In this document: positions 1-32,959 of the stretch, piece by piece
How the letters are laid out: every line of letters begins with the position of its first letter
Position numbering within the stretch: position 1 is the first letter of the stretch
Virus record (IMG/VR): IMGVR_UViG_2537561979_000009
Location: 1 to 41,073 of that record
DNA: 41,073 nt
DNA from: a virus
Taxonomy: Duplodnaviria; Heunggongvirae; Uroviricota; Caudoviricetes
Direction: 5' to 3' (one strand)
Translations under genes and position numbers: made by a program
Notes under the pieces: generated by a model
Told to the model about the DNA's origin: nothing
Seen by the model: the letters and a program-made list of their open reading frames with translations, nothing else
The model's database searches: none

Positions 1-588
1 CGTTCCACCTGTTTCACCTTTTGGTCCCTGTGGACCTGCCGGACCGCGTTCACCTGTTTCACCTTTTGGTCCCTGTGGACCTGCCGGGCCGCGTGCTCCT
101 GTTTCACCTTTTGGCCCCTGTGGCCCGGTAATGCCTCTTTCACCACGAGCGCCGGTATCCCCTTTCTCTCCTCGTGGTCCCCGGGCAGATGCTGCTCGTT
201 TCCGGGCTTCCTCCGCCTCAGATGCCGCGGACTCTGCTCTGTGCAGTATGGACTGCACCACAGCCTCCAGCTCTGACAACGCCTTCGGATAATAAGGAGC
301 ATCTTCCATCTCCATCAGAAATTTATTCAGTGTTCCCGGTGACGAATCCTCCCTGACCACGATATCTCCCACATACGAAGGACGGTAACCTTCTGTATTG
401 AGTGTCACCCTGTATATTCCTGGCTCCACATCCATACTGTAACTCCCCGTCTCTTCCGGCATGCCATAAGCCACTGTCGTGGCGATGACTGTCTCGCTGG
501 TTCTCTTCGCTTTCAGCTCAATAATGCATCCCGGTACCGGTTTTCCGGTTCCGTCCCTCAGCACGCCTGAAATTTTTACAGCCGCCAT
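1..588 (-). CDS. stf: Side tail fiber protein, N-terminal 196 codons only (ORF continues beyond position 1); collagen-like Gly-X-Y repeats
   Basis: Manual minus-strand translation from ATG at 586-588 gives [18 protein letters not shown]..., resembling the lambda Stf N-terminus, then [16 protein letters not shown] repeats; GGAG Shine-Dalgarno upstream; open to base 1. Confidence 0.75.
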
Positions 589-660: not shown

Positions 661-906
661 TTACTTCACGCACGAAACTTTCGTAAACATATCTTCACTC
701 ACCCACTGACCATAAAATCTCGGAGCTGATACTTTATACACAGTGCCGCTTTTCGTTTCTATTTTCCCTGTAAGATCTACCGTATAAGCTCGCTGTAAAA
801 CCCCGGGACTCAGCACACCGGTGCACCGGACTCTCTCCGTAACGGAACTGTACCCCGCGCAACCTGATACAAGAAACAGCAAAAAAGTGCAGACGATTAT
901 TTTCAT
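661..906 (-). CDS. Small lipoprotein, Cor-like (possible superinfection exclusion), 81 aa
   Basis: Signal peptide plus lipobox (LVSGC); GAGGG Shine-Dalgarno 9 nt upstream; sits between the J module and the side tail fiber, where cor lies in phi80/N15/HK022-type phages. Assignment is by position and architecture, not verified homology. Confidence 0.45.
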   Translation of the reverse strand: MKIIVCTFLLFLVSGCAGYSSVTERVRCTGVLSPGVLQRAYTVDLTGKIETKSGTVYKVSAPRFYGQWVSEDMFTKVSCVK

Positions 907-927
907 TACATGCCCTCAACATAACTA

Positions 928-1590
928 TCAGTACGCATCATAAATTTCTGCATTTATGTAATAACAGAGGTTATTAACAACACCTGAATTATCATTGGGC
1001 GCCGCTACGTTATCTTCAGCAAAAGTTGACTGACGCCATAACTGTGAGTTTCTGGCATTAAAACTGGCGGTATACCAGTAATAACTCTCCCCTTCCTGAA
1101 CTGTCGTCCACTGGGTACACCCCGGCATTACGGCCACATCATGTCCCACACTGATCGGTACATCCTTTTCCCATATTCGCGTCATTTTTACTTCCAGTGG
1201 CAGCATTTCCGTGTTCCAGACCACCCTGCCATGACTGTCGCACAACTGTATTCCCCATTGCGGCCATACATTCACCATGTTGGCAAAAACATAAACAACA
1301 TATGTGCTGTCCTGTTCCATGCCCGGCTCCTGCCCTGTACCAGCGCTGAAAATGTCATACTGCCAGGTACCGTTAAGCTGAACCATTTCACCATGGAAGG
1401 ACTGATTACCGCTTATCTGTTTAATAAAAATCACGCAACGATAATTCGTCGGCACCCCGGTGTCGATAAACTGCATCACCGCATCACGCGCACTCAGTGT
1501 GAAATGAAAACGGCGCACAAGGTTCAGTGGCGGCGCAACAGGTGATATCCATTCTCTCCCCCGCTCATCAGTTAATTTAAGTGCAAACAT
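928..1590 (-). CDS. Hypothetical protein, 220 aa, in host-range module downstream of J
   Basis: Long ORF whose start overlaps the stop of the upstream 86-aa ORF; not recognised. Confidence 0.5.
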   Translation of the reverse strand: MFALKLTDERGREWISPVAPPLNLVRRFHFTLSARDAVMQFIDTGVPTNYRCVIFIKQISGNQSFHGEMVQLNGTWQYDIFSAGTGQEPGMEQDSTYVVYVFANMVNVWPQWGIQLCDSHGRVVWNTEMLPLEVKMTRIWEKDVPISVGHDVAVMPGCTQWTTVQEGESYYWYTASFNARNSQLWRQSTFAEDNVAAPNDNSGVVNNLCYYINAEIYDAY

Positions 1591-1850
1591 CAGATCCCCC
1601 TTATCATGACCAGCACGGGTCTTAACCAGCTTGTGTTGGCATAGTGCACTGTCCAGCCGGATACACTGGCACTGGTATGACTTCCCTGACCGTTAATCAG
1701 AATGGCCGGTGAACAGACTTCCAGACGCCAGCCCTGCAAAGGAGTATAAGAACGCTGCCCCGTCCCTTCAGTGATCACATCCAGCACCCCTGTTGGGTTT
1801 ATTTCATGTGTCACAAGGCGCCCTTTGCGCCATACCCGGACTCCGAACAT
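1590..1850 (-). CDS. Hypothetical protein, 86 aa, start overlapping the J stop
   Basis: Start overlaps J stop and its stop overlaps the next ORF start; not recognised. Confidence 0.45.
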   Translation of the reverse strand: MFGVRVWRKGRLVTHEINPTGVLDVITEGTGQRSYTPLQGWRLEVCSPAILINGQGSHTSASVSGWTVHYANTSWLRPVLVMIRGI

Positions 1851-4800
1851 TACAGTCTCCCCAGTCGTACTCTTAACACATTGTTATCGTCATATACGTC
1901 GATTCGCTCGCCATTGAAAAACAGGCGGCCTGCGCCGGGCCTTCCTGAGTTAATTTCAAGGCTGCCGTTTCTTGATAAACGCCACCCCGGACTACCGGAA
2001 TGAAAATTATCTGACCGGATATCTCCCGTCACTCTGGCAAAATCCACGGTCAGTTTTTTCATGAAAACATCATTCATGAACAGCTGATCACCCTGAGCCA
2101 CAAACAAAGGTGTTGTATTGCCATTTTCCGGGTTAATCATCGCAATACGATCTGCCTGCATCAGGATCTGACTCTGAATTCCGTCAGACGTATTTTCGAT
2201 TCCGGCACCAATACCTGCAATATAGAGACGTCCATCCCGTGTCTGCTGCAGCTTCACAGCCCACATGCTGTTCAGGTTCCGGCGCGTGTCCTCCTGAACT
2301 TTCTGTATCTGCTCAATGCTGGCATTCCAGGATCCCAGTTTTTTATCCGTGCTCTGTTTGATCTGACTTCCCTTATCATCAACATACTGTCTGATCTGCG
2401 CTATCTGTCGGCTGTTCTCCTCCGTGCTCCTGCTTACTGTCTGCCGGATTTCGCTTCCCATCCTGTCAACTTTTCTGTCAACTTCCGCAATGGCCATTGA
2501 CTGTTCAGCGCTCTTTTTCGCCACAACAGTACTTATTTGCGCACTTTTATCATCAACATACTGCCTGACCTGCGCTATCTGTCGGCTGTTCTCCTCCGTG
2601 CTCCTGCTCACTGTCTGCCGGATTTCACTGCTCACGCTGTCAACTTTCCTGTCGACTTTCGCAATGGCCAGCGACTGTTCACCGCTCTTTTTCGCCACCA
2701 GTTCCGTTATGCTGTTTTCAGACGCCGTGATTTTTTTCGTCACCCCGGCGATATCACGCTCCGCACGCTGCCTCACATCTTTCTCCAGCTGCGTCATTTC
2801 GCGGTTAATCTCATTCTCCAGTTGCTCAACTTCAGTGCGCCGTGCAGAGGCATCAATGCGTTCATTGATCTCCCGTCCCAGATGCGTTTTATTTATCGCC
2901 CCCCTGAAAAAATTAAGGTAAGCGGCAGGATCATTACTCGGTTGACCGACTGCCTCCACGAATGCCGATTTACCGACAGTGTTAACACTGCGGATATAAA
3001 AGTAATAATCATGACCAGGCTTAATATTCTGGCCGGAGACAAGCCACTGAGTTCCGGTACCAAGATAACGGGCTGTGGTTTCAACCTGCCTGATATCGGT
3101 AATCCGCTTTTCCGAAAACCAGAACTCAAACTGTACCGTCGGATCATAAACGGCAAGATGCGGCGTGGCGGTTATCTGAAAATAGCCCGGCGTCAGCTCA
3201 ATCCGCGACGGCGCTGCCGGTGCGGCAATCCGGAACGATACCGACGCCGGGTCTCCCTGCTGCCCCCGGGCATTTACTGCCCGGACTGTCAGCCTGTAGT
3301 TCCCCGGTGCCAGCTGCCTGAAGCGGTATGTGGTTTCCGTCGTCCGGGCCGTGCTGACCAGCCGCTCACTGCCGTCATCCGCTGCCACGGTCAGGCGAAG
3401 CATGAAACTCACGCCTTTCACCACCTTCGGCGTGTCCCAGCGGGCCAGTACCTGATACTCCCCGCTGTCTGCGGTGACTTCGACAGTCAGGTGCTGCACT
3501 GCTGGCGGCGTGACACCATTCACCGTGCCGCTCTGGTCACCGTCAAAGTGTGCCCCGTTATCCACGATGCCCTCTTTTTCCGGTACATGCTGCACGGCAG
3601 TGATGGCATACGTGCCGTCGTCGTTCTCACGGATACTCACGCAGCGGAACAGGCGCTGGCGCAGCGTCGGCAGCTTCAGCCCCCACACGCTGTACTCGGC
3701 AACGCCGTCAGGAACCCGGCTCACTTTTACCTTCACGCCGTCGGTGACGGACTGAACCTCCACGCTGACCGGATTGCCACTTCCGTCAACCAGACTTATC
3801 AGCGTGGTACCGGAGGATGGCAGCGTGATTTCACGGTCGAGCGTCAGCGTCCGGGTCTGGCTGTTCACCGCCAGCACACGACCACCGGTGCTGATACCGG
3901 CATAGTCATCATCACAGATTTCAATGACATCGCCCGGTACATGGCGAAGCCCTTCAGCACCCACGCTGAAATCCACGGTCTGCGTCTCCAGCAGTTCTGT
4001 TTTAATCAGCCACAGCCCGGCGCGGTGTGCCTGCCCCCGGCTGGTACAGCCAAAGGCATCCATCTTCGTGACGTTACGACCGTAACGGGCAATGGCCTGC
4101 GTGTCCTCCACAAGCTCTGTCGCCGTCTCCTGGCCGTTATCCGGGTCACTCCAGTTCACCTCAACGGCATTATGGCGGTCCTTCAGGGCGCTGAAGCTGT
4201 AGCGGAACGGCGCGCCATCATCCGGCATCACCACATTACTGCGGTTATAGGTCCACACCTTATCCGACGGCCGGTCCTGCACGAACGTCAGCGTCTGCCC
4301 GTTCCATACCGGCATACAGCGCATCGCCGAGCAGAAATCACTGAGCACATCCCACGCCTTGCGCTGTGTGGTCAGCCAGGCATTACAGGTGATGCGCGGC
4401 TCCGTGCCACCAGAGCCGTCCGGCACCGACTGGTCGCAGTACTGGCCGATAACATACAGCGCCCATTTGTCCACATCCGCTGCGCCAACACGTTTCCCCA
4501 TGCCGTAGCGCGGGTGGGTCAGCATATCCCACAGACACCAGGCCGGGTTATCGCTGTATGCCGGTTTAAACGTTCCGTCCCAGATACCGCTGTATTGCCG
4601 CGTCTGCGGGTTATAGTTCGACGGCACCTGCAGAATGCGCCCGCGAAAATGATAATTACGGCTCACCTGCTGGCTGCCGAACTGCTCCGAATCCACCTGC
4701 ACACCGACCAGTGCCGTGTTCGGGTAGCACTGTTTCACATCGATGATTTCGGTGTATGACGACCAGAGCGTTTTGTTCTGCAGCTGGTCTGTGGTGCTGT

Positions 4801-5359
4801 CCGGCGTCATCCTGCGCATCCGGATACTGAACGGGCGCGGAGGCAGGTTACCCACCACCACCGAGGCCAGATACTGCGAGGTGGTTTTGCCCTTAATGGT
4901 GATGTCTTTTTCCGTCACCCAGCCACCGTTACGCTGTATCTGAACCAGCAGGCGGACTTCCGACGGATTCCGGTCCCCCTTTGAGGTGGTTTCCACCAGT
5001 GCCTGCACACCGAAGGTCAGGCGCAGACGGTCGATGTTTGCCGACGTGATGGTCCGGGTAATCGGCGTGTCGTACTTCACTTCCGTACCCAGCACCGTCT
5101 CGGAGCCGGAGGATTCAAATCCCTCCGGCGGCGTCTGCTCCTGCTCACCTGACCGGAACACCACCGTGACGCCGGATATATTGGTATTCCCCTCACTGTC
5201 CAGCACCGGCGTACCGTTCAGCAGCACGCTTTTTAATCCATCCACCGGTCCTTGTATCGGCCCTTCGCTGATGACATCGATCACACTCAGCAACTGCGTG
5301 GACTTCAGGTTGTCCTTCGCTTCGCGCGGGGTATGCCCCTTACTGCTGCCTTTACCCAT
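1850..5359 (-). CDS. J: Tail tip host specificity protein J, 1169 aa, with a non-lambda C-terminal region
   Basis: N-terminus [24 protein letters not shown] and most of the length match lambda J as I recall it; the last ~300 aa diverge and contain an internal duplication. Confidence 0.93.
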
Positions 5360-31799: not shown

Positions 31800-32959
31800 T
31801 TGCGCCCCCTTACCTCTGAAGGGTTCAGCGACAAATTTATGAGGCAGGCCAGTGCCGAAGCATCATTAATATAGTCATATAAGCTAACAGCCAGCGGAGA
31901 TTCGGCTTTTGCCAACATAGGATAAAGCTGCTGCAGCCAGACCTGATGAATTGATGAAATGTAGGAACAGAGAACGCTGGCGTTATGTGCAACGTCGCTC
32001 GGTACAGCGGGCTTTGAAAGCTGTTTCTCCATCTGGTTAAAGGCATTGATGTATGCCTCTTTGAACTGGGCAGCACGTTTCCCCGTGAAACCCATAGCAA
32101 GAAACGCAAAGCCGTCGCGGGTTATTTGATAGCAAGGAAGTTTGCGAGTACCGCCGTTGGGCTGGCGTACCAAAATTGATGTCTCCGCAAAATTGCGGGC
32201 ACAAAACTCTGGAGAACAATCCAAAATGCGGATCTTTTTCAGAACATCGTCATGACGTTTAGAGAAGAAGTCAGCAACAGCCAAAGAAGATGTAACAGCC
32301 TGACCATCAACGATGGCAATTTCAGGTTGAGAGAGGGTTGGGAGAGTAGTCATGGTGACAGCCCCGGTAGTCAGTTTTTTAGAAAACTCACCACATGGGA
32401 CGCCAATCACAGAGGTGGTGAGACGTACAGGGTTGGCGTTACCGGAGACTACCGAACCCGGCCCGACCGAAGTCGGCCCTGTACGCCCCACCATAATTTG
32501 GGCGTAGCAATGCTCATGACACGAAAAAACCGCATGAGCGCGGTTATGCTCAGTAATCAATTTCAGGACGCCAATCCCGGCACCCGTTTTATAAGGTGCC
32601 TGAACAGTGTAACGTCCCGGAATGGCAGAATCAATGTGCTGGTGGTCCTTCACACTCAACAAAATCACGCCTGAATTTCCACAAAGGACTAAAGCACTCA
32701 TGCGGGTAGTCTTTGCGAAAATAGATAACGCGCTGTGTTTCTGGTTCCCAACGAATAACATGAACATAAAGTCCTCTTCCGTCACGAAACCAGCGGTTAA
32801 GTTCCTGCACAACTCGCCCCCCACAGTCAGGTAAAGTTCTCTGTGGTTACTTACAGCCAGGTGATTTGGTAATCTGCATTCATGCCGTAACAACAGGTGT
32901 TCAGCCACGCGGACCACCAGCTGTTGCGACCAACGGTTATTTGCCGTTAAACTGTTCAT
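31796..32959 (-). CDS. Rha family phage regulatory protein; Rha domain in the C-terminal 185 aa, N-terminal 202 codons of uncertain reality
   Basis: MTTLPTLSQPEIAIVDGQAVTSSLAVADFFSKRHDDVLKKIRILDCSPEFCARNF...MGFTG matches the Phage_pRha pattern and begins at an internal Met near 32353; the ORF stays open to 32959. Confidence 0.6.
   Translation of the reverse strand: MNSLTANNRWSQQLVVRVAEHLLLRHECRLPNHLAVSNHRELYLTVGGELCRNLTAGFVTEEDFMFMLFVGNQKHSALSIFAKTTRMSALVLCGNSGVILLSVKDHQHIDSAIPGRYTVQAPYKTGAGIGVLKLITEHNRAHAVFSCHEHCYAQIMVGRTGPTSVGPGSVVSGNANPVRLTTSVIGVPCGEFSKKLTTGAVTMTTLPTLSQPEIAIVDGQAVTSSLAVADFFSKRHDDVLKKIRILDCSPEFCARNFAETSILVRQPNGGTRKLPCYQITRDGFAFLAMGFTGKRAAQFKEAYINAFNQMEKQLSKPAVPSDVAHNASVLCSYISSIHQVWLQQLYPMLAKAESPLAVSLYDYINDASALACLINLSLNPSEVRGRK

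What the first reader, a model, noticed from the sequence alone, without database searches (positions are those of the whole stretch)
2375..2722. Tandem ~174-bp (58-codon) duplication inside the J C-terminal region
Two adjacent near-identical DNA units, beginning at about 2375 and 2549, encode a repeated coiled-coil-like segment (…QYVDDK.AQI…VAKKS.EQS.AIA.VDRKVD…[20 protein letters not shown]…). Copy-number change here would alter fibre length or geometry and is a likely recombination hotspot.
Basis: seen in the sequence. Interest (0 to 1): 0.4.

Follow-up and report, generated by a model that had tools for sequence, protein, structure and literature searches.

The report
Repeat-lengthened helical shaft in J
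A real, in-frame 174-bp tandem duplication lengthens the helical stalk of a prophage's central tail fibre protein J; related E. coli prophages carry one, two or three copies, so it is a natural length variant of a known fibre part and not a new kind of system.

Summary
The repeat is real. Two 174-bp units lie at 2549-2722 and 2375-2548. The high-identity core is 2373-2698 (about 91%), and no other offset in the gene exceeds 51%. The units are codons 880-995 of the minus-strand gene 1850-5359, a 1169-aa lambda-type J protein. They sit in the alpha-helical shaft, between the second Ig-like domain and the beta-prism fibre, not in the receptor-binding tip. Here the shaft is 170 residues longer than lambda's 53-residue shaft. 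It is built from old, degenerate 29-residue repeats with a hydrophobic period of about 3.63 residues. The 58-codon unit is a younger duplication of two such 29-mers (about 16 helical turns). In complete E. coli genomes, about 730 have diverged single-copy alleles and 23 have the duplication. One (AR_0085) has a third copy whose sequence fits unequal crossing-over. A separate 11-residue repeat upstream also varies (1, 2 or 3 copies). Phage T1 gp33 aligns end to end with this J and has its own 33-residue tandem repeat in the same shaft. My best reading is a spacer that adds about 8.6 nm per unit to a trimeric coiled coil; that length effect is inferred. The "hotspot" claim is only weakly supported. 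Interest is modest.

The parts
1850..5359 (-). J gene (central tail fibre / tip attachment protein J), 1169 aa, intact reading frame
   Evidence: ORF list and translation. Pfam FNIII-A_GpJ 86-207, Phage-tail_3 330-498, Ig_J 610-714, Ig_J_second 716-818, Phage_Tail_Tip 1015-1140. NCBIfam NF049904 lambda_TipJ 1974.6 bits against a cut-off of 1950. phrog_31 central tail fiber J.
2549..2722 (-). Repeat unit A (first in the protein), J residues 880-937
2375..2548 (-). Repeat unit B (second in the protein), J residues 938-995
   Evidence: The core differs from unit A at 14 of 150 nt: 6 synonymous and 7 non-synonymous codon differences, dN/dS about 0.27.
2273..2935 (-). Whole extended alpha-helical shaft, about J residues 809-1029, made of degenerate 29-residue repeats
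   Evidence: Lambda J 808-839 aligns to J 808-839 here, and lambda 844-941 aligns to J 1014-1111 here. The AlphaFold2 monomer model has helices at J 811-824, 826-891 and 898-1029. Hydrophobic period is 3.625 residues. An offset-29 self-similarity is significant in single-copy alleles.
2321..2842 (-). Stretch of about 170 residues (J 840-1013) with no counterpart in lambda J. It sits between the two halves of lambda's shaft (lambda 809-840 and 841-861).
   Evidence: Alignments to PDB lambda J chains and to NC_001416 J. The anchor-to-anchor distance is 251 aa here and 81 aa in lambda. Lambda shaft boundaries are from PMC11101478.
2759..2824 (-). Second, smaller tandem repeat: two diverged 11-residue units ([11 protein letters not shown] / [12 protein letters not shown] 846-867). 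The copy number is 1, 2 or 3 in other alleles.
   Evidence: Alignment of alleles: L003 and L009 have one unit, the window has two, L004 and L007 have three. Coordinates checked.
1940..2317 (-). Central straight fibre (beta-prism) domain, J 1015-1140 by Pfam Phage_Tail_Tip
   Evidence: Aligns to lambda J 844-941 in PDB 8iyk, 8xcj and 9wca.
1853..2029 (-). Short T1-type C-terminal tip (J 1111-1169, ending ...RVRLGRL), in place of lambda's Ig-like LamB-binding domain
   Evidence: Alignments to T1 gp33 (9l9p_S), 9ze4_N and 7z4b_EA. The lambda-type receptor-binding domain is absent.
661..1850 (-). Downstream module that goes with this tip type: orf86 (1590-1850), orf220 (928-1590) and a Cor-like lipoprotein (661-906)
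   Evidence: phrog_557 and phrog_425, whose PHROG descriptions match the product names annotated on T1 gp32 and gp31. phrog_1119 Cor, E 8.6e-7, and 29% identity to T1 Cor. orf220 versus T1 gp31 gives E 3e-6; orf86 versus T1 gp32 is not significant.

Best explanation
The feature is an in-frame tandem duplication of 58 codons inside the alpha-helical shaft of the central tail fibre protein J of a lambdoid E. coli prophage. In this allele family the shaft is not lambda's 53-residue bundle. It is a helix of about 220 residues built from old, degenerate 29-residue repeats (8 helical turns each, about 3.63 residues per turn). The duplicated unit is two such 29-mers, about 16 turns. The duplication arose once, by unequal recombination or slippage between neighbouring repeats, after this lineage split from the single-copy alleles. 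It has since been inherited with different distal tips. It occasionally expands again, as in the third copy in AR_0085. Inferred mechanism: in the J trimer the shaft is a parallel three-stranded coiled coil. Each unit then adds about 8.6 nm (58 x 0.148 nm) without changing the angular register of the distal beta-prism and tip. The tip sits farther from the tail-tube mouth and can reach farther to its receptor. In this allele the tip is the short T1-type end, and receptor binding is probably done by a separately encoded small protein from the locus just downstream. Shown here: the repeat, its reading frame, its position in the domain order, its helical and amphipathic periodicity, and the copy-number series. 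Inferred: the trimeric parallel geometry, the length gain and any effect on host range.
For: The repeat is real and unique in the gene.

Position. It lies between Ig_J_second (716-818) and Phage_Tail_Tip (1015-1140). Lambda J 808-839 and 844-941 flank an insert of about 170 residues. Lambda's shaft is a three-helix bundle at residues 809-861 (PMC11101478).

Helical character. The AlphaFold2 monomer model is helical over J 811-1029, with pLDDT of 60-80 in the helices. The hydrophobic period is 3.625 residues in the window, reached by 0 of 500 shuffles. It is 3.65 in single-copy alleles, where the value cannot be a harmonic of the duplication.

29-residue substructure. The mean BLOSUM62 score at offset 29 is 0.74-0.77 in single-copy alleles. 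The maximum over 300 shuffles is 0.39-0.47.

Copy-number series. About 736 genomes carry only the single unit and 23 carry the A-B junction. AR_0085 has three units. Its middle unit is B-type for the first 24 nt and A-type for the rest, as expected from a crossover in the 16-nt identical run at positions 25-40.

Age and constraint. Units A and B are 91% identical in the core and 72-78% identical to single-copy alleles. Orthologous units are 97-100% identical between genomes. dN/dS between A and B is about 0.27.

Shaft lengths relative to lambda are +28, +101, +170, +181 and +239 residues.

Parallel case. T1 gp33 aligns end to end (29% identity, E 4e-131) and has a perfect 33-residue (99-bp) tandem repeat in the same shaft. 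Its C-terminal part is modelled as a fibre of about 370 A (PMC11945409).
Against: No trimer model or image was available. The only structure prediction is a single-sequence monomer with mean pLDDT 55. It breaks the helix at J 892-897, so a fold-back hairpin or bundle that adds less length cannot be excluded. The exact 3.625 peak in the two-copy allele is partly forced, because 58/16 is a harmonic of the repeat. Only the 3.6-3.65 values from single units and single-copy alleles are independent, and their resolution is about 0.05-0.1 residues. No functional data link shaft length to adsorption or host range. The prophage was not shown to be inducible. In lambda the shaft refolds on receptor binding to open the tail tip. 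It is unclear how that signal would pass along a shaft four times longer.
Confidence: 0.65

Rival explanations
1. Selectively neutral in-frame expansion: the duplication is merely tolerated in a repetitive helical segment and has no effect on infection worth selecting for.
For: Only 23 of 5426 complete genomes carry it. Only 2 of 50,697 phage records carry any version of the 58-residue unit, and a megablast search of the same collection with 1850-3100, which holds the junction, found no close relative of the two-copy allele. Seven of 13 differing codons between the copies change the amino acid. Many J genes in these prophages are decaying, for example an IS66 truncation in L006 and a frameshift in L016.
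Against: The reading frame and hydrophobic register are kept. dN/dS between copies is about 0.27. The two-copy shaft persists across alleles that differ by up to 3%, across at least two tip types, and in several prophages within one genome. The indels compared between the extended alleles (11, 29 and 58 residues) are each close to a whole number of helical turns; the +28-residue L010 shaft (7.7 turns at 3.625 residues per turn) fits less well.
Confidence: 0.25
2. The extra helices do not lengthen the fibre. They fold back into an antiparallel bundle or knob near the Ig-like domains, so a duplication changes thickness or stiffness, not reach.
For: The AlphaFold2 monomer model breaks the helix at J 892-897 (KKSGEQ), which would allow a hairpin. 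Glycines are present at 872, 893, 968, 997 and 1009.
Against: A monomer model of a trimeric fibre commonly folds back artificially. The break is predicted in unit A but not at the equivalent KKSAEQ of unit B. The insert interrupts a segment that is a parallel three-helix bundle in lambda. The published AlphaFold3 model of the homologous T1 gp33 C-terminus is an extended fibre of about 370 A. A uniform 29-residue periodicity runs through the whole shaft.
Confidence: 0.1
3. Assembly artefact, or a programmed variation device such as a diversity-generating retroelement repeat pair or a phase-variable tract.
For: Tandem repeats are often mis-assembled, and many database copies of this J are fragments from short-read assemblies.
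Against: The identical structure occurs in 23 complete genomes and two independent contigs. The copies differ at fixed positions. The mismatches involve all base types and are not adenine-specific. The unit is 174 bp and in frame, and the copy count is stable. No RNA family, promoter-like or terminator-like site lies inside 2373-2722.
Confidence: 0.01

Closest known systems
Alpha-helical shaft of phage lambda gpJ (residues 809-861; Ge and Wang 2024, PMC11101478; PDB 8iyk, 8xcj)
   Same: It occupies the same place in the same protein family: after the second FNIII/Ig-like domain and before the beta-prism central straight fibre. Both flanks are homologous: lambda 808-839 and 844-941 align to J 808-839 and 1014-1111 here.
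   Different: Lambda has no insert and no repeats. The anchor-to-anchor distance is 81 aa in lambda and 251 aa here. The insert falls exactly between lambda's 'upper' helix (809-840) and the 'lower' part (841-861) that refolds into beta-strands on LamB binding. Lambda ends in an Ig-like LamB-binding domain, whereas this J ends in a 59-residue T1-type tip.
Central fibre protein gp33 of phage T1 (1172 aa; PDB 9l9p; PMC11945409)
   Same: It aligns end to end (29% identity, E 4e-131) and has almost the same length. It has a long helical shaft and the same C-terminal ending (...RVQIGRL versus ...RVRLGRL). It has its own tandem repeat in the shaft. The motif SELREVIATETEALSREIDQLKAQIGDD aligns with [27 protein letters not shown]. 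The same gene order follows: a small ORF, a protein of about 220 aa, then Cor.
   Different: T1's unit is 33 residues (three 11-residue units, period about 3.7) and its two best copies are identical. Here the unit is 58 residues (2 x 29, period about 3.63) and the copies are 9% diverged. The N-terminal 800 residues here are lambda-type, not T1-type. The T1 shaft was not resolved experimentally.
Single-copy extended-shaft J alleles of E. coli prophages and of the isolated phages PhiR40_1 and PhiR49_2
   Same: They share the shaft architecture and the 29-residue repeats, and are 70-74% identical in protein sequence over the unit. They are found in about 14% of complete E. coli genomes.
   Different: They have one unit, not two, and lack one 11-residue unit. 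They usually carry a lambda-like Ig-type receptor-binding domain followed by Lom.
Length variation through repeats in other trimeric fibres and stalks: adenovirus fibre shaft repeats, trimeric autotransporter adhesin stalks, and segmented coiled coils with 29-residue repeats such as SF-assemblin and beta-giardin (from my own knowledge, not tested here)
   Same: Length is set by the number of repeat units. The increments keep the helical register. A 29-residue repeat corresponds to 8 turns.
   Different: These proteins and organisms are unrelated. The resemblance is one of principle only, and no homology is claimed.

Membership tests
Lambda-type tip attachment protein J (NCBIfam NF049904 lambda_TipJ) | Whole-protein score at or above the curated cut-off | tested here: met
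   1974.6 bits against a cut-off of 1950.
Lambda-type tip attachment protein J (NCBIfam NF049904 lambda_TipJ) | Domain order FNIII-A, hub (Phage-tail_3), two Ig/FNIII domains, tail-tip fibre domain | tested here: met
   Pfam PF24801, PF13550, PF24421, PF24489 and PF09327 occur in that order, each with E <= 2e-34.
Lambda-type tip attachment protein J (NCBIfam NF049904 lambda_TipJ) | Gene position after the tail assembly genes I and K | tested here: met
   ORFs of matching size lie upstream. In near-identical loci they are annotated as tail assembly protein and C40 family peptidase.
Lambda-type tip attachment protein J (NCBIfam NF049904 lambda_TipJ) | C-terminal Ig-like receptor-binding domain as in lambda (about residues 980-1132) | tested here: not met
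   It is absent in the alignment. The protein ends 59 residues after the beta-prism, with a T1-type tip.
Alpha-helical shaft of gpJ (as defined for lambda in PMC11101478) | Helical segment between FNIII-2 and the central straight fibre, with flanks homologous to lambda 809-840 and 841-861 | tested here: met
   Helical in the AlphaFold2 monomer model.
Alpha-helical shaft of gpJ (as defined for lambda in PMC11101478) | Parallel three-helix bundle in the J trimer | not testable with these tools
   Only monomer prediction is offered. The amphipathic period of 3.6-3.65 residues is compatible with a bundle.
Alpha-helical shaft of gpJ (as defined for lambda in PMC11101478) | Refolds on receptor binding to release the FNIII domains and open the tip | not testable with these tools
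   This needs structures of receptor-bound virions.
T1 / Dhillonvirus-type central fibre with a separately encoded receptor-binding protein | J-like protein that lacks the Ig-like end and finishes in the short conserved tip | tested here: met
   Alignments to T1 gp33, 9ze4_N and 7z4b_EA over the last 60 residues. The 'knife-like' tip is described in PMC12309495.
T1 / Dhillonvirus-type central fibre with a separately encoded receptor-binding protein | A small ORF and a protein of about 23 kDa directly downstream, then a Cor-type exclusion lipoprotein | tested here: inconclusive
   The order and sizes match T1 gp32, gp31 and cor. The PHROG matches are weak for orf86 (phrog_557, E 2.8e-4) and good for orf220 (phrog_425, E 3.3e-27). 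Cor-like: phrog_1119 at E 8.6e-7, and E 4e-5 against T1 Cor. orf220 versus gp31 gives E 3e-6. orf86 versus gp32 is not significant.
T1 / Dhillonvirus-type central fibre with a separately encoded receptor-binding protein | The downstream protein binds the tip and the receptor | not testable with these tools
   This is a hypothesis in the literature too (PMC8594841 and PMC12309495).
Coiled coil with 29-residue (8-turn) periodicity | 29-residue sequence repeat with a hydrophobic period near 3.625 residues | tested here: met
   Offset-29 score is 0.74-0.77 against a shuffle maximum of 0.39-0.47. The period is 3.625 to 3.65 residues.

The most novel reading that the evidence does not exclude
The J shaft acts as a quantised molecular ruler. 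Among the extended alleles, natural lengths change in steps that are whole numbers of helical turns (11 residues = 3 turns, 29 = 8, 58 = 16), so the distal tip keeps its orientation while its reach changes by about 1.6, 4.3 or 8.6 nm (the +28-residue L010 shaft, 7.7 turns, fits this less well). Copy number would then be selected to match the thickness of the host's O-antigen or capsule layer. That would also mean the receptor-binding signal that opens the tail tip can travel along a coiled coil of 30-45 nm, which the lambda model of local shaft refolding does not explain.
Probability: 0.2. Interest if true: 0.5.

Novelty: new member of a known kind. Interest (0 to 1): 0.3.

Why it matters
The shaft of J couples receptor binding at the fibre tip to opening of the tail tube in lambda. 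Natural alleles that differ only by one, two or three 58-residue units, or by one 11-residue unit, form a ready-made length series in otherwise near-identical proteins. That series could test two things: how fibre length affects adsorption through surface polysaccharide, and whether the opening signal can pass along a long coiled coil. There is also a practical point for annotation. J genes of different lengths (1159 to 1302 aa) differ through three separable modules: shaft repeats, tip type and the downstream receptor-binding locus. The "C-terminal region" of J is therefore not always the receptor-binding part. Beyond that, the finding is an ordinary example of repeat expansion in a fibrous phage protein.

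Tried and rejected
(1) Searching solved structures with the shaft alone (208 aa) gave nothing significant; the best E was 0.34. No solved structure covers this repeat. The T1 gp33 entry 9l9p models only residues 13-820.

(2) The word-indexed protein search returned mainly contig-end fragments of J and no full-length proteins, so it could not be used for counting copies. I used DNA searches of complete genomes instead.

(3) The unit profile searched against 1.84 billion representatives gave only 17 hits. These were E. coli J fragments plus two unrelated weak repeat-protein hits, P0032 and P0035. The unit family is narrow. No protein with more than three matched stretches is a credible J.

(4) I first read the AR_0085 alignment, which stops at window 2698, as a recombination breakpoint into unrelated sequence. 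Fetching the locus showed it is a third copy.

(5) I first took orf220 for a Lom/Ail barrel. Pfam and NCBIfam give nothing. It groups instead with the T1 gp31-type 'membrane associated protein' family.

(6) A regulatory or RNA role for the repeat on either strand was rejected. No Rfam family and no promoter-like or terminator-like site lies inside 2373-2722. The long plus-strand ORFs across J (for example 2537-4759) run antisense to a well-supported gene and were not pursued.

(7) A diversity-generating retroelement or phase variation was rejected, because the mismatch pattern is not adenine-specific and the copy number is stable.

(8) An exact-junction scan of one genome per species (GTDB) found nothing. 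No spread beyond E. coli was detected at that stringency.

(9) Literature searches for earlier descriptions of tandem duplications in J found none. The PhiR phages have no paper in the library.
Full report
OBSERVATION. The tandem repeat is present as described. Tandem Repeats Finder reports window 2373-2698 with period 174, 1.9 copies, 90% matches and no indels. The repeat finder gives two 152-nt copies at 91%, spaced 174 nt apart. I scanned all in-frame offsets (multiples of 3 nt) from 30 to 1200 nt across the gene. Offset 174 reaches 91% identity in a 90-nt window, and the next best offset reaches 51%. They encode J residues 880-937 and 938-995 with the quoted peptide. The first 24 nt of the two units are unrelated. 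The near-identical core is therefore about 150 nt, with 14 differences.

WHAT THE GENE IS. The minus-strand ORF 1850-5359 (1169 aa) is a lambda-type J. It passes the curated NCBIfam lambda_TipJ threshold (1974.6 bits against 1950). It has the Pfam series FNIII-A_GpJ, Phage-tail_3, Ig_J, Ig_J_second and Phage_Tail_Tip. The window as a whole is a lambdoid E. coli prophage. Near-identical J genes lie in E. coli chromosomes next to tail assembly genes.

WHERE IN THE PROTEIN. The repeat lies between Ig_J_second (716-818) and the tail-tip fibre domain (1015-1140).
- Alignment to solved lambda J chains and to the lambda genome copy shows that lambda 808-839 matches residues 808-839 here.
- Lambda 844-941 matches residues 1014-1111 here, so about 170 residues have no lambda counterpart.
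- In lambda this position is the alpha-helical shaft, residues 809-861. It is a three-helix bundle that holds the FNIII domains together and refolds when LamB binds (PMC11101478).
- The insert sits between that shaft's upper helix (809-840) and its lower part (841-861).

The repeat is therefore in a greatly extended shaft, not in the receptor-binding end.

NATURE OF THE SHAFT.
- A single-sequence AlphaFold2 monomer model is of low overall confidence (mean pLDDT 55). It is helical over J 811-824, 826-891 and 898-1029, with pLDDT of 60-80 in the helices.
- Hydrophobicity has one dominant period of 3.625 residues, which 0 of 500 shuffles reach.
- That value is a harmonic of 58, so I repeated the analysis on single-copy alleles. 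They give 3.65 over 155 residues.
- Self-comparison of those single-copy shafts shows a significant 29-residue repeat. The mean BLOSUM62 score at offset 29 is 0.74-0.77, against a maximum of 0.39-0.47 in 300 shuffles. Offset 58 comes next.

The shaft is thus an array of old, degenerate 29-residue units of 8 turns each.

COPY NUMBER IN RELATIVES.
- A blastn search with one unit finds it in 732 of 5426 complete E. coli genomes. Of 734 matching records, 23 are at 97-100% identity and 711 at 60-80%.
- A query across the A-B junction is fully covered in only 23 genomes, all at 95% identity or more. Every other genome covers half of it, meaning one copy.
- Fetched single-copy examples confirm this (L003, L009, L013, L015-L017). 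They include two isolated phages, PhiR40_1 and PhiR49_2.
- Among the 23 genomes, alignment lengths show two copies in 22.
- E. coli AR_0085 has three copies, giving a J of 1238 aa. Its middle copy carries the B-type first 24 nt and the A-type remainder. This is what unequal crossing-over within the 16-nt identical run at unit positions 25-40 would produce.
- One IMG/VR contig and one metagenome contig also have two copies. One genome per species in GTDB gave no match.
- Several of the 23 records are the same strain sequenced repeatedly, so the number of independent strains is nearer 16.
- Some genomes carry the two-copy J in two prophages, for example LH50-c.

AGE AND CONSTRAINT. Units A and B are 91% identical in the core and 72-78% identical to single-copy alleles. 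Orthologous units are 97-100% identical between genomes. The duplication therefore followed the split from the single-copy alleles and preceded the spread of the two-copy family. dS is 0.25 and dN is 0.066, giving a ratio of 0.27 over only 50 codons. This suggests the copies are under purifying selection. The longest identical run between the copies is 39 nt. Together with 22 of 23 genomes having exactly two copies, this argues for occasional change and not a hot spot.

OTHER LENGTH VARIATION IN THE SAME SHAFT. An 11-residue unit upstream (window 2759-2824) is present once in L003 and L009, twice here, and three times in GF60 and AR_0085. Relative to lambda, the shafts seen are +28, +101, +170, +181 and +239 residues. 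At 3.625 residues per turn, the steps of 11, 29 and 58 residues are 3.0, 8.0 and 16.0 turns. This fits, but does not prove, selection for keeping the register. The two-copy shaft is combined with at least two distal ends: the short tip here and a long Ig-type domain in NRZ14408. The switch point is just after FMNDVFMK, at about window 2058.

THE T1 PARALLEL.
- T1 gp33 (1172 aa) aligns with this J from end to end at 29% identity, E 4e-131.
- It shares the C-terminal ending.
- It has its own perfect 33-residue (99-bp) tandem repeat in the equivalent shaft, with weaker copies at offsets 66 and 99.
- Its C-terminal 352 residues were not resolved by cryo-EM. An AlphaFold3 model shows a fibre of about 370 A (PMC11945409).
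- Downstream of J the window has orf86, orf220 and a lipoprotein that matches the Cor exclusion family. This is the same order as T1 gp32, gp31 and cor.
- Published work proposes that in such phages the receptor-binding protein is a separate small protein encoded just after the J homologue (PMC8594841; PMC12309495).

The fibre whose length the repeat sets probably carries a separate receptor-binding protein at its tip. That step is an inference.

MECHANISM AND RIVALS. My best reading (confidence 0.65) is a register-keeping spacer that adds about 8.6 nm per unit to a parallel trimeric coiled coil. This uses the standard helix rise of 0.148 nm per residue and is inferred. The main rivals are a selectively neutral expansion (0.25) and a fold-back bundle that does not add length (0.1). 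An assembly artefact or programmed variation is excluded by the data.

COMPARISON AND NOVELTY. J, its helical shaft and repeat-built fibre shafts are all known. I found no earlier description of this 58-residue duplication, the 29-residue substructure or the 1/2/3 copy series, but the library is incomplete. I rate it a new member of a known kind, of modest interest. Its use would be as a natural length series for testing how the J shaft transmits the receptor signal.

Noticed in passing
window 1-588 (minus strand); tandem repeat at 1-123: This is the start of a side tail fibre gene ([13 protein letters not shown]...), cut by the window edge. It runs into collagen-like Gly-X-Y repeats. Tandem Repeats Finder reports a 45-bp (15-residue) period, 2.7 copies and 93% identity at 1-123 ([15 protein letters not shown]). 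It is a second repeat-built fibre segment in the same tail module.
   Followed up: partly
window 661-906, 928-1590 and 1590-1850 (all minus strand): Directly after J lie an 86-aa ORF (phrog_557), a 220-aa ORF (phrog_425) and an 81-aa lipoprotein with a lipobox (LVSGC). The lipoprotein matches the Cor superinfection-exclusion family and T1 Cor (29% identity). The order is the same as T1 gp32, gp31 and cor, which suggests a separately encoded receptor-binding protein and a cognate exclusion protein, not Lom.
   Followed up: partly
window 2759-2824 (minus strand): There are two diverged 11-residue units ([11 protein letters not shown] / [11 protein letters not shown]). Other alleles have one (L003, L009) or three (L004 GF60, L007 AR_0085). 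This is a second, independent length polymorphism in the same shaft.
   Followed up: yes
window about 2058 (J residue about 1100, after FMNDVFMK): This is a module boundary. Fourteen genome records share the two-copy shaft at 97-99.7% identity up to this point and then switch to a long Ig-type receptor-binding domain (for example NRZ14408, J of 1302 aa). Shaft and tip are exchanged independently.
   Followed up: partly
window 32411-32498 and 32523-32599 (minus strand): Rfam matches above the gathering score: C4 antisense RNA (82 bits) and isrK Hfq-binding RNA (60 bits). They suggest a P1/P7-type antisense immunity or anti-repressor control region in this lambdoid prophage.
   Followed up: no
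L014 (phage T1) 11044-14562, gene nt about 2767-2960: T1 gp33 contains a perfect 99-bp (33-residue) tandem repeat in its helical shaft, with weaker copies at offsets 66 and 99 residues. The passages of the T1 structure paper that I retrieved by term search do not mention it.
   Followed up: partly
P0019 (538-aa fragment from the protein representative library): This J fragment carries two extra 29-residue duplications, one in the shaft ([29 protein letters not shown] twice) and one in the beta-prism ([29 protein letters not shown] twice). They are either further real repeat variants or an assembly artefact.
   Followed up: no
L006 3020-6802; L016 1585-5149; L015-L017 1246-1386: The J gene of strain 135 is cut at its 3' end by an IS66 element. 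The J gene of 2012C-4431 is frameshifted. The single-copy alleles in the Shiga-toxin-type strains are followed by a Hok/Gef toxin gene instead of Lom.
   Followed up: no
window 2537-4759 and 2424-2921 (plus strand): Long open frames (740 and 165 aa) run antisense to J across the repeat. They have no support as genes and are probably a by-product of J's codon usage.
   Followed up: no
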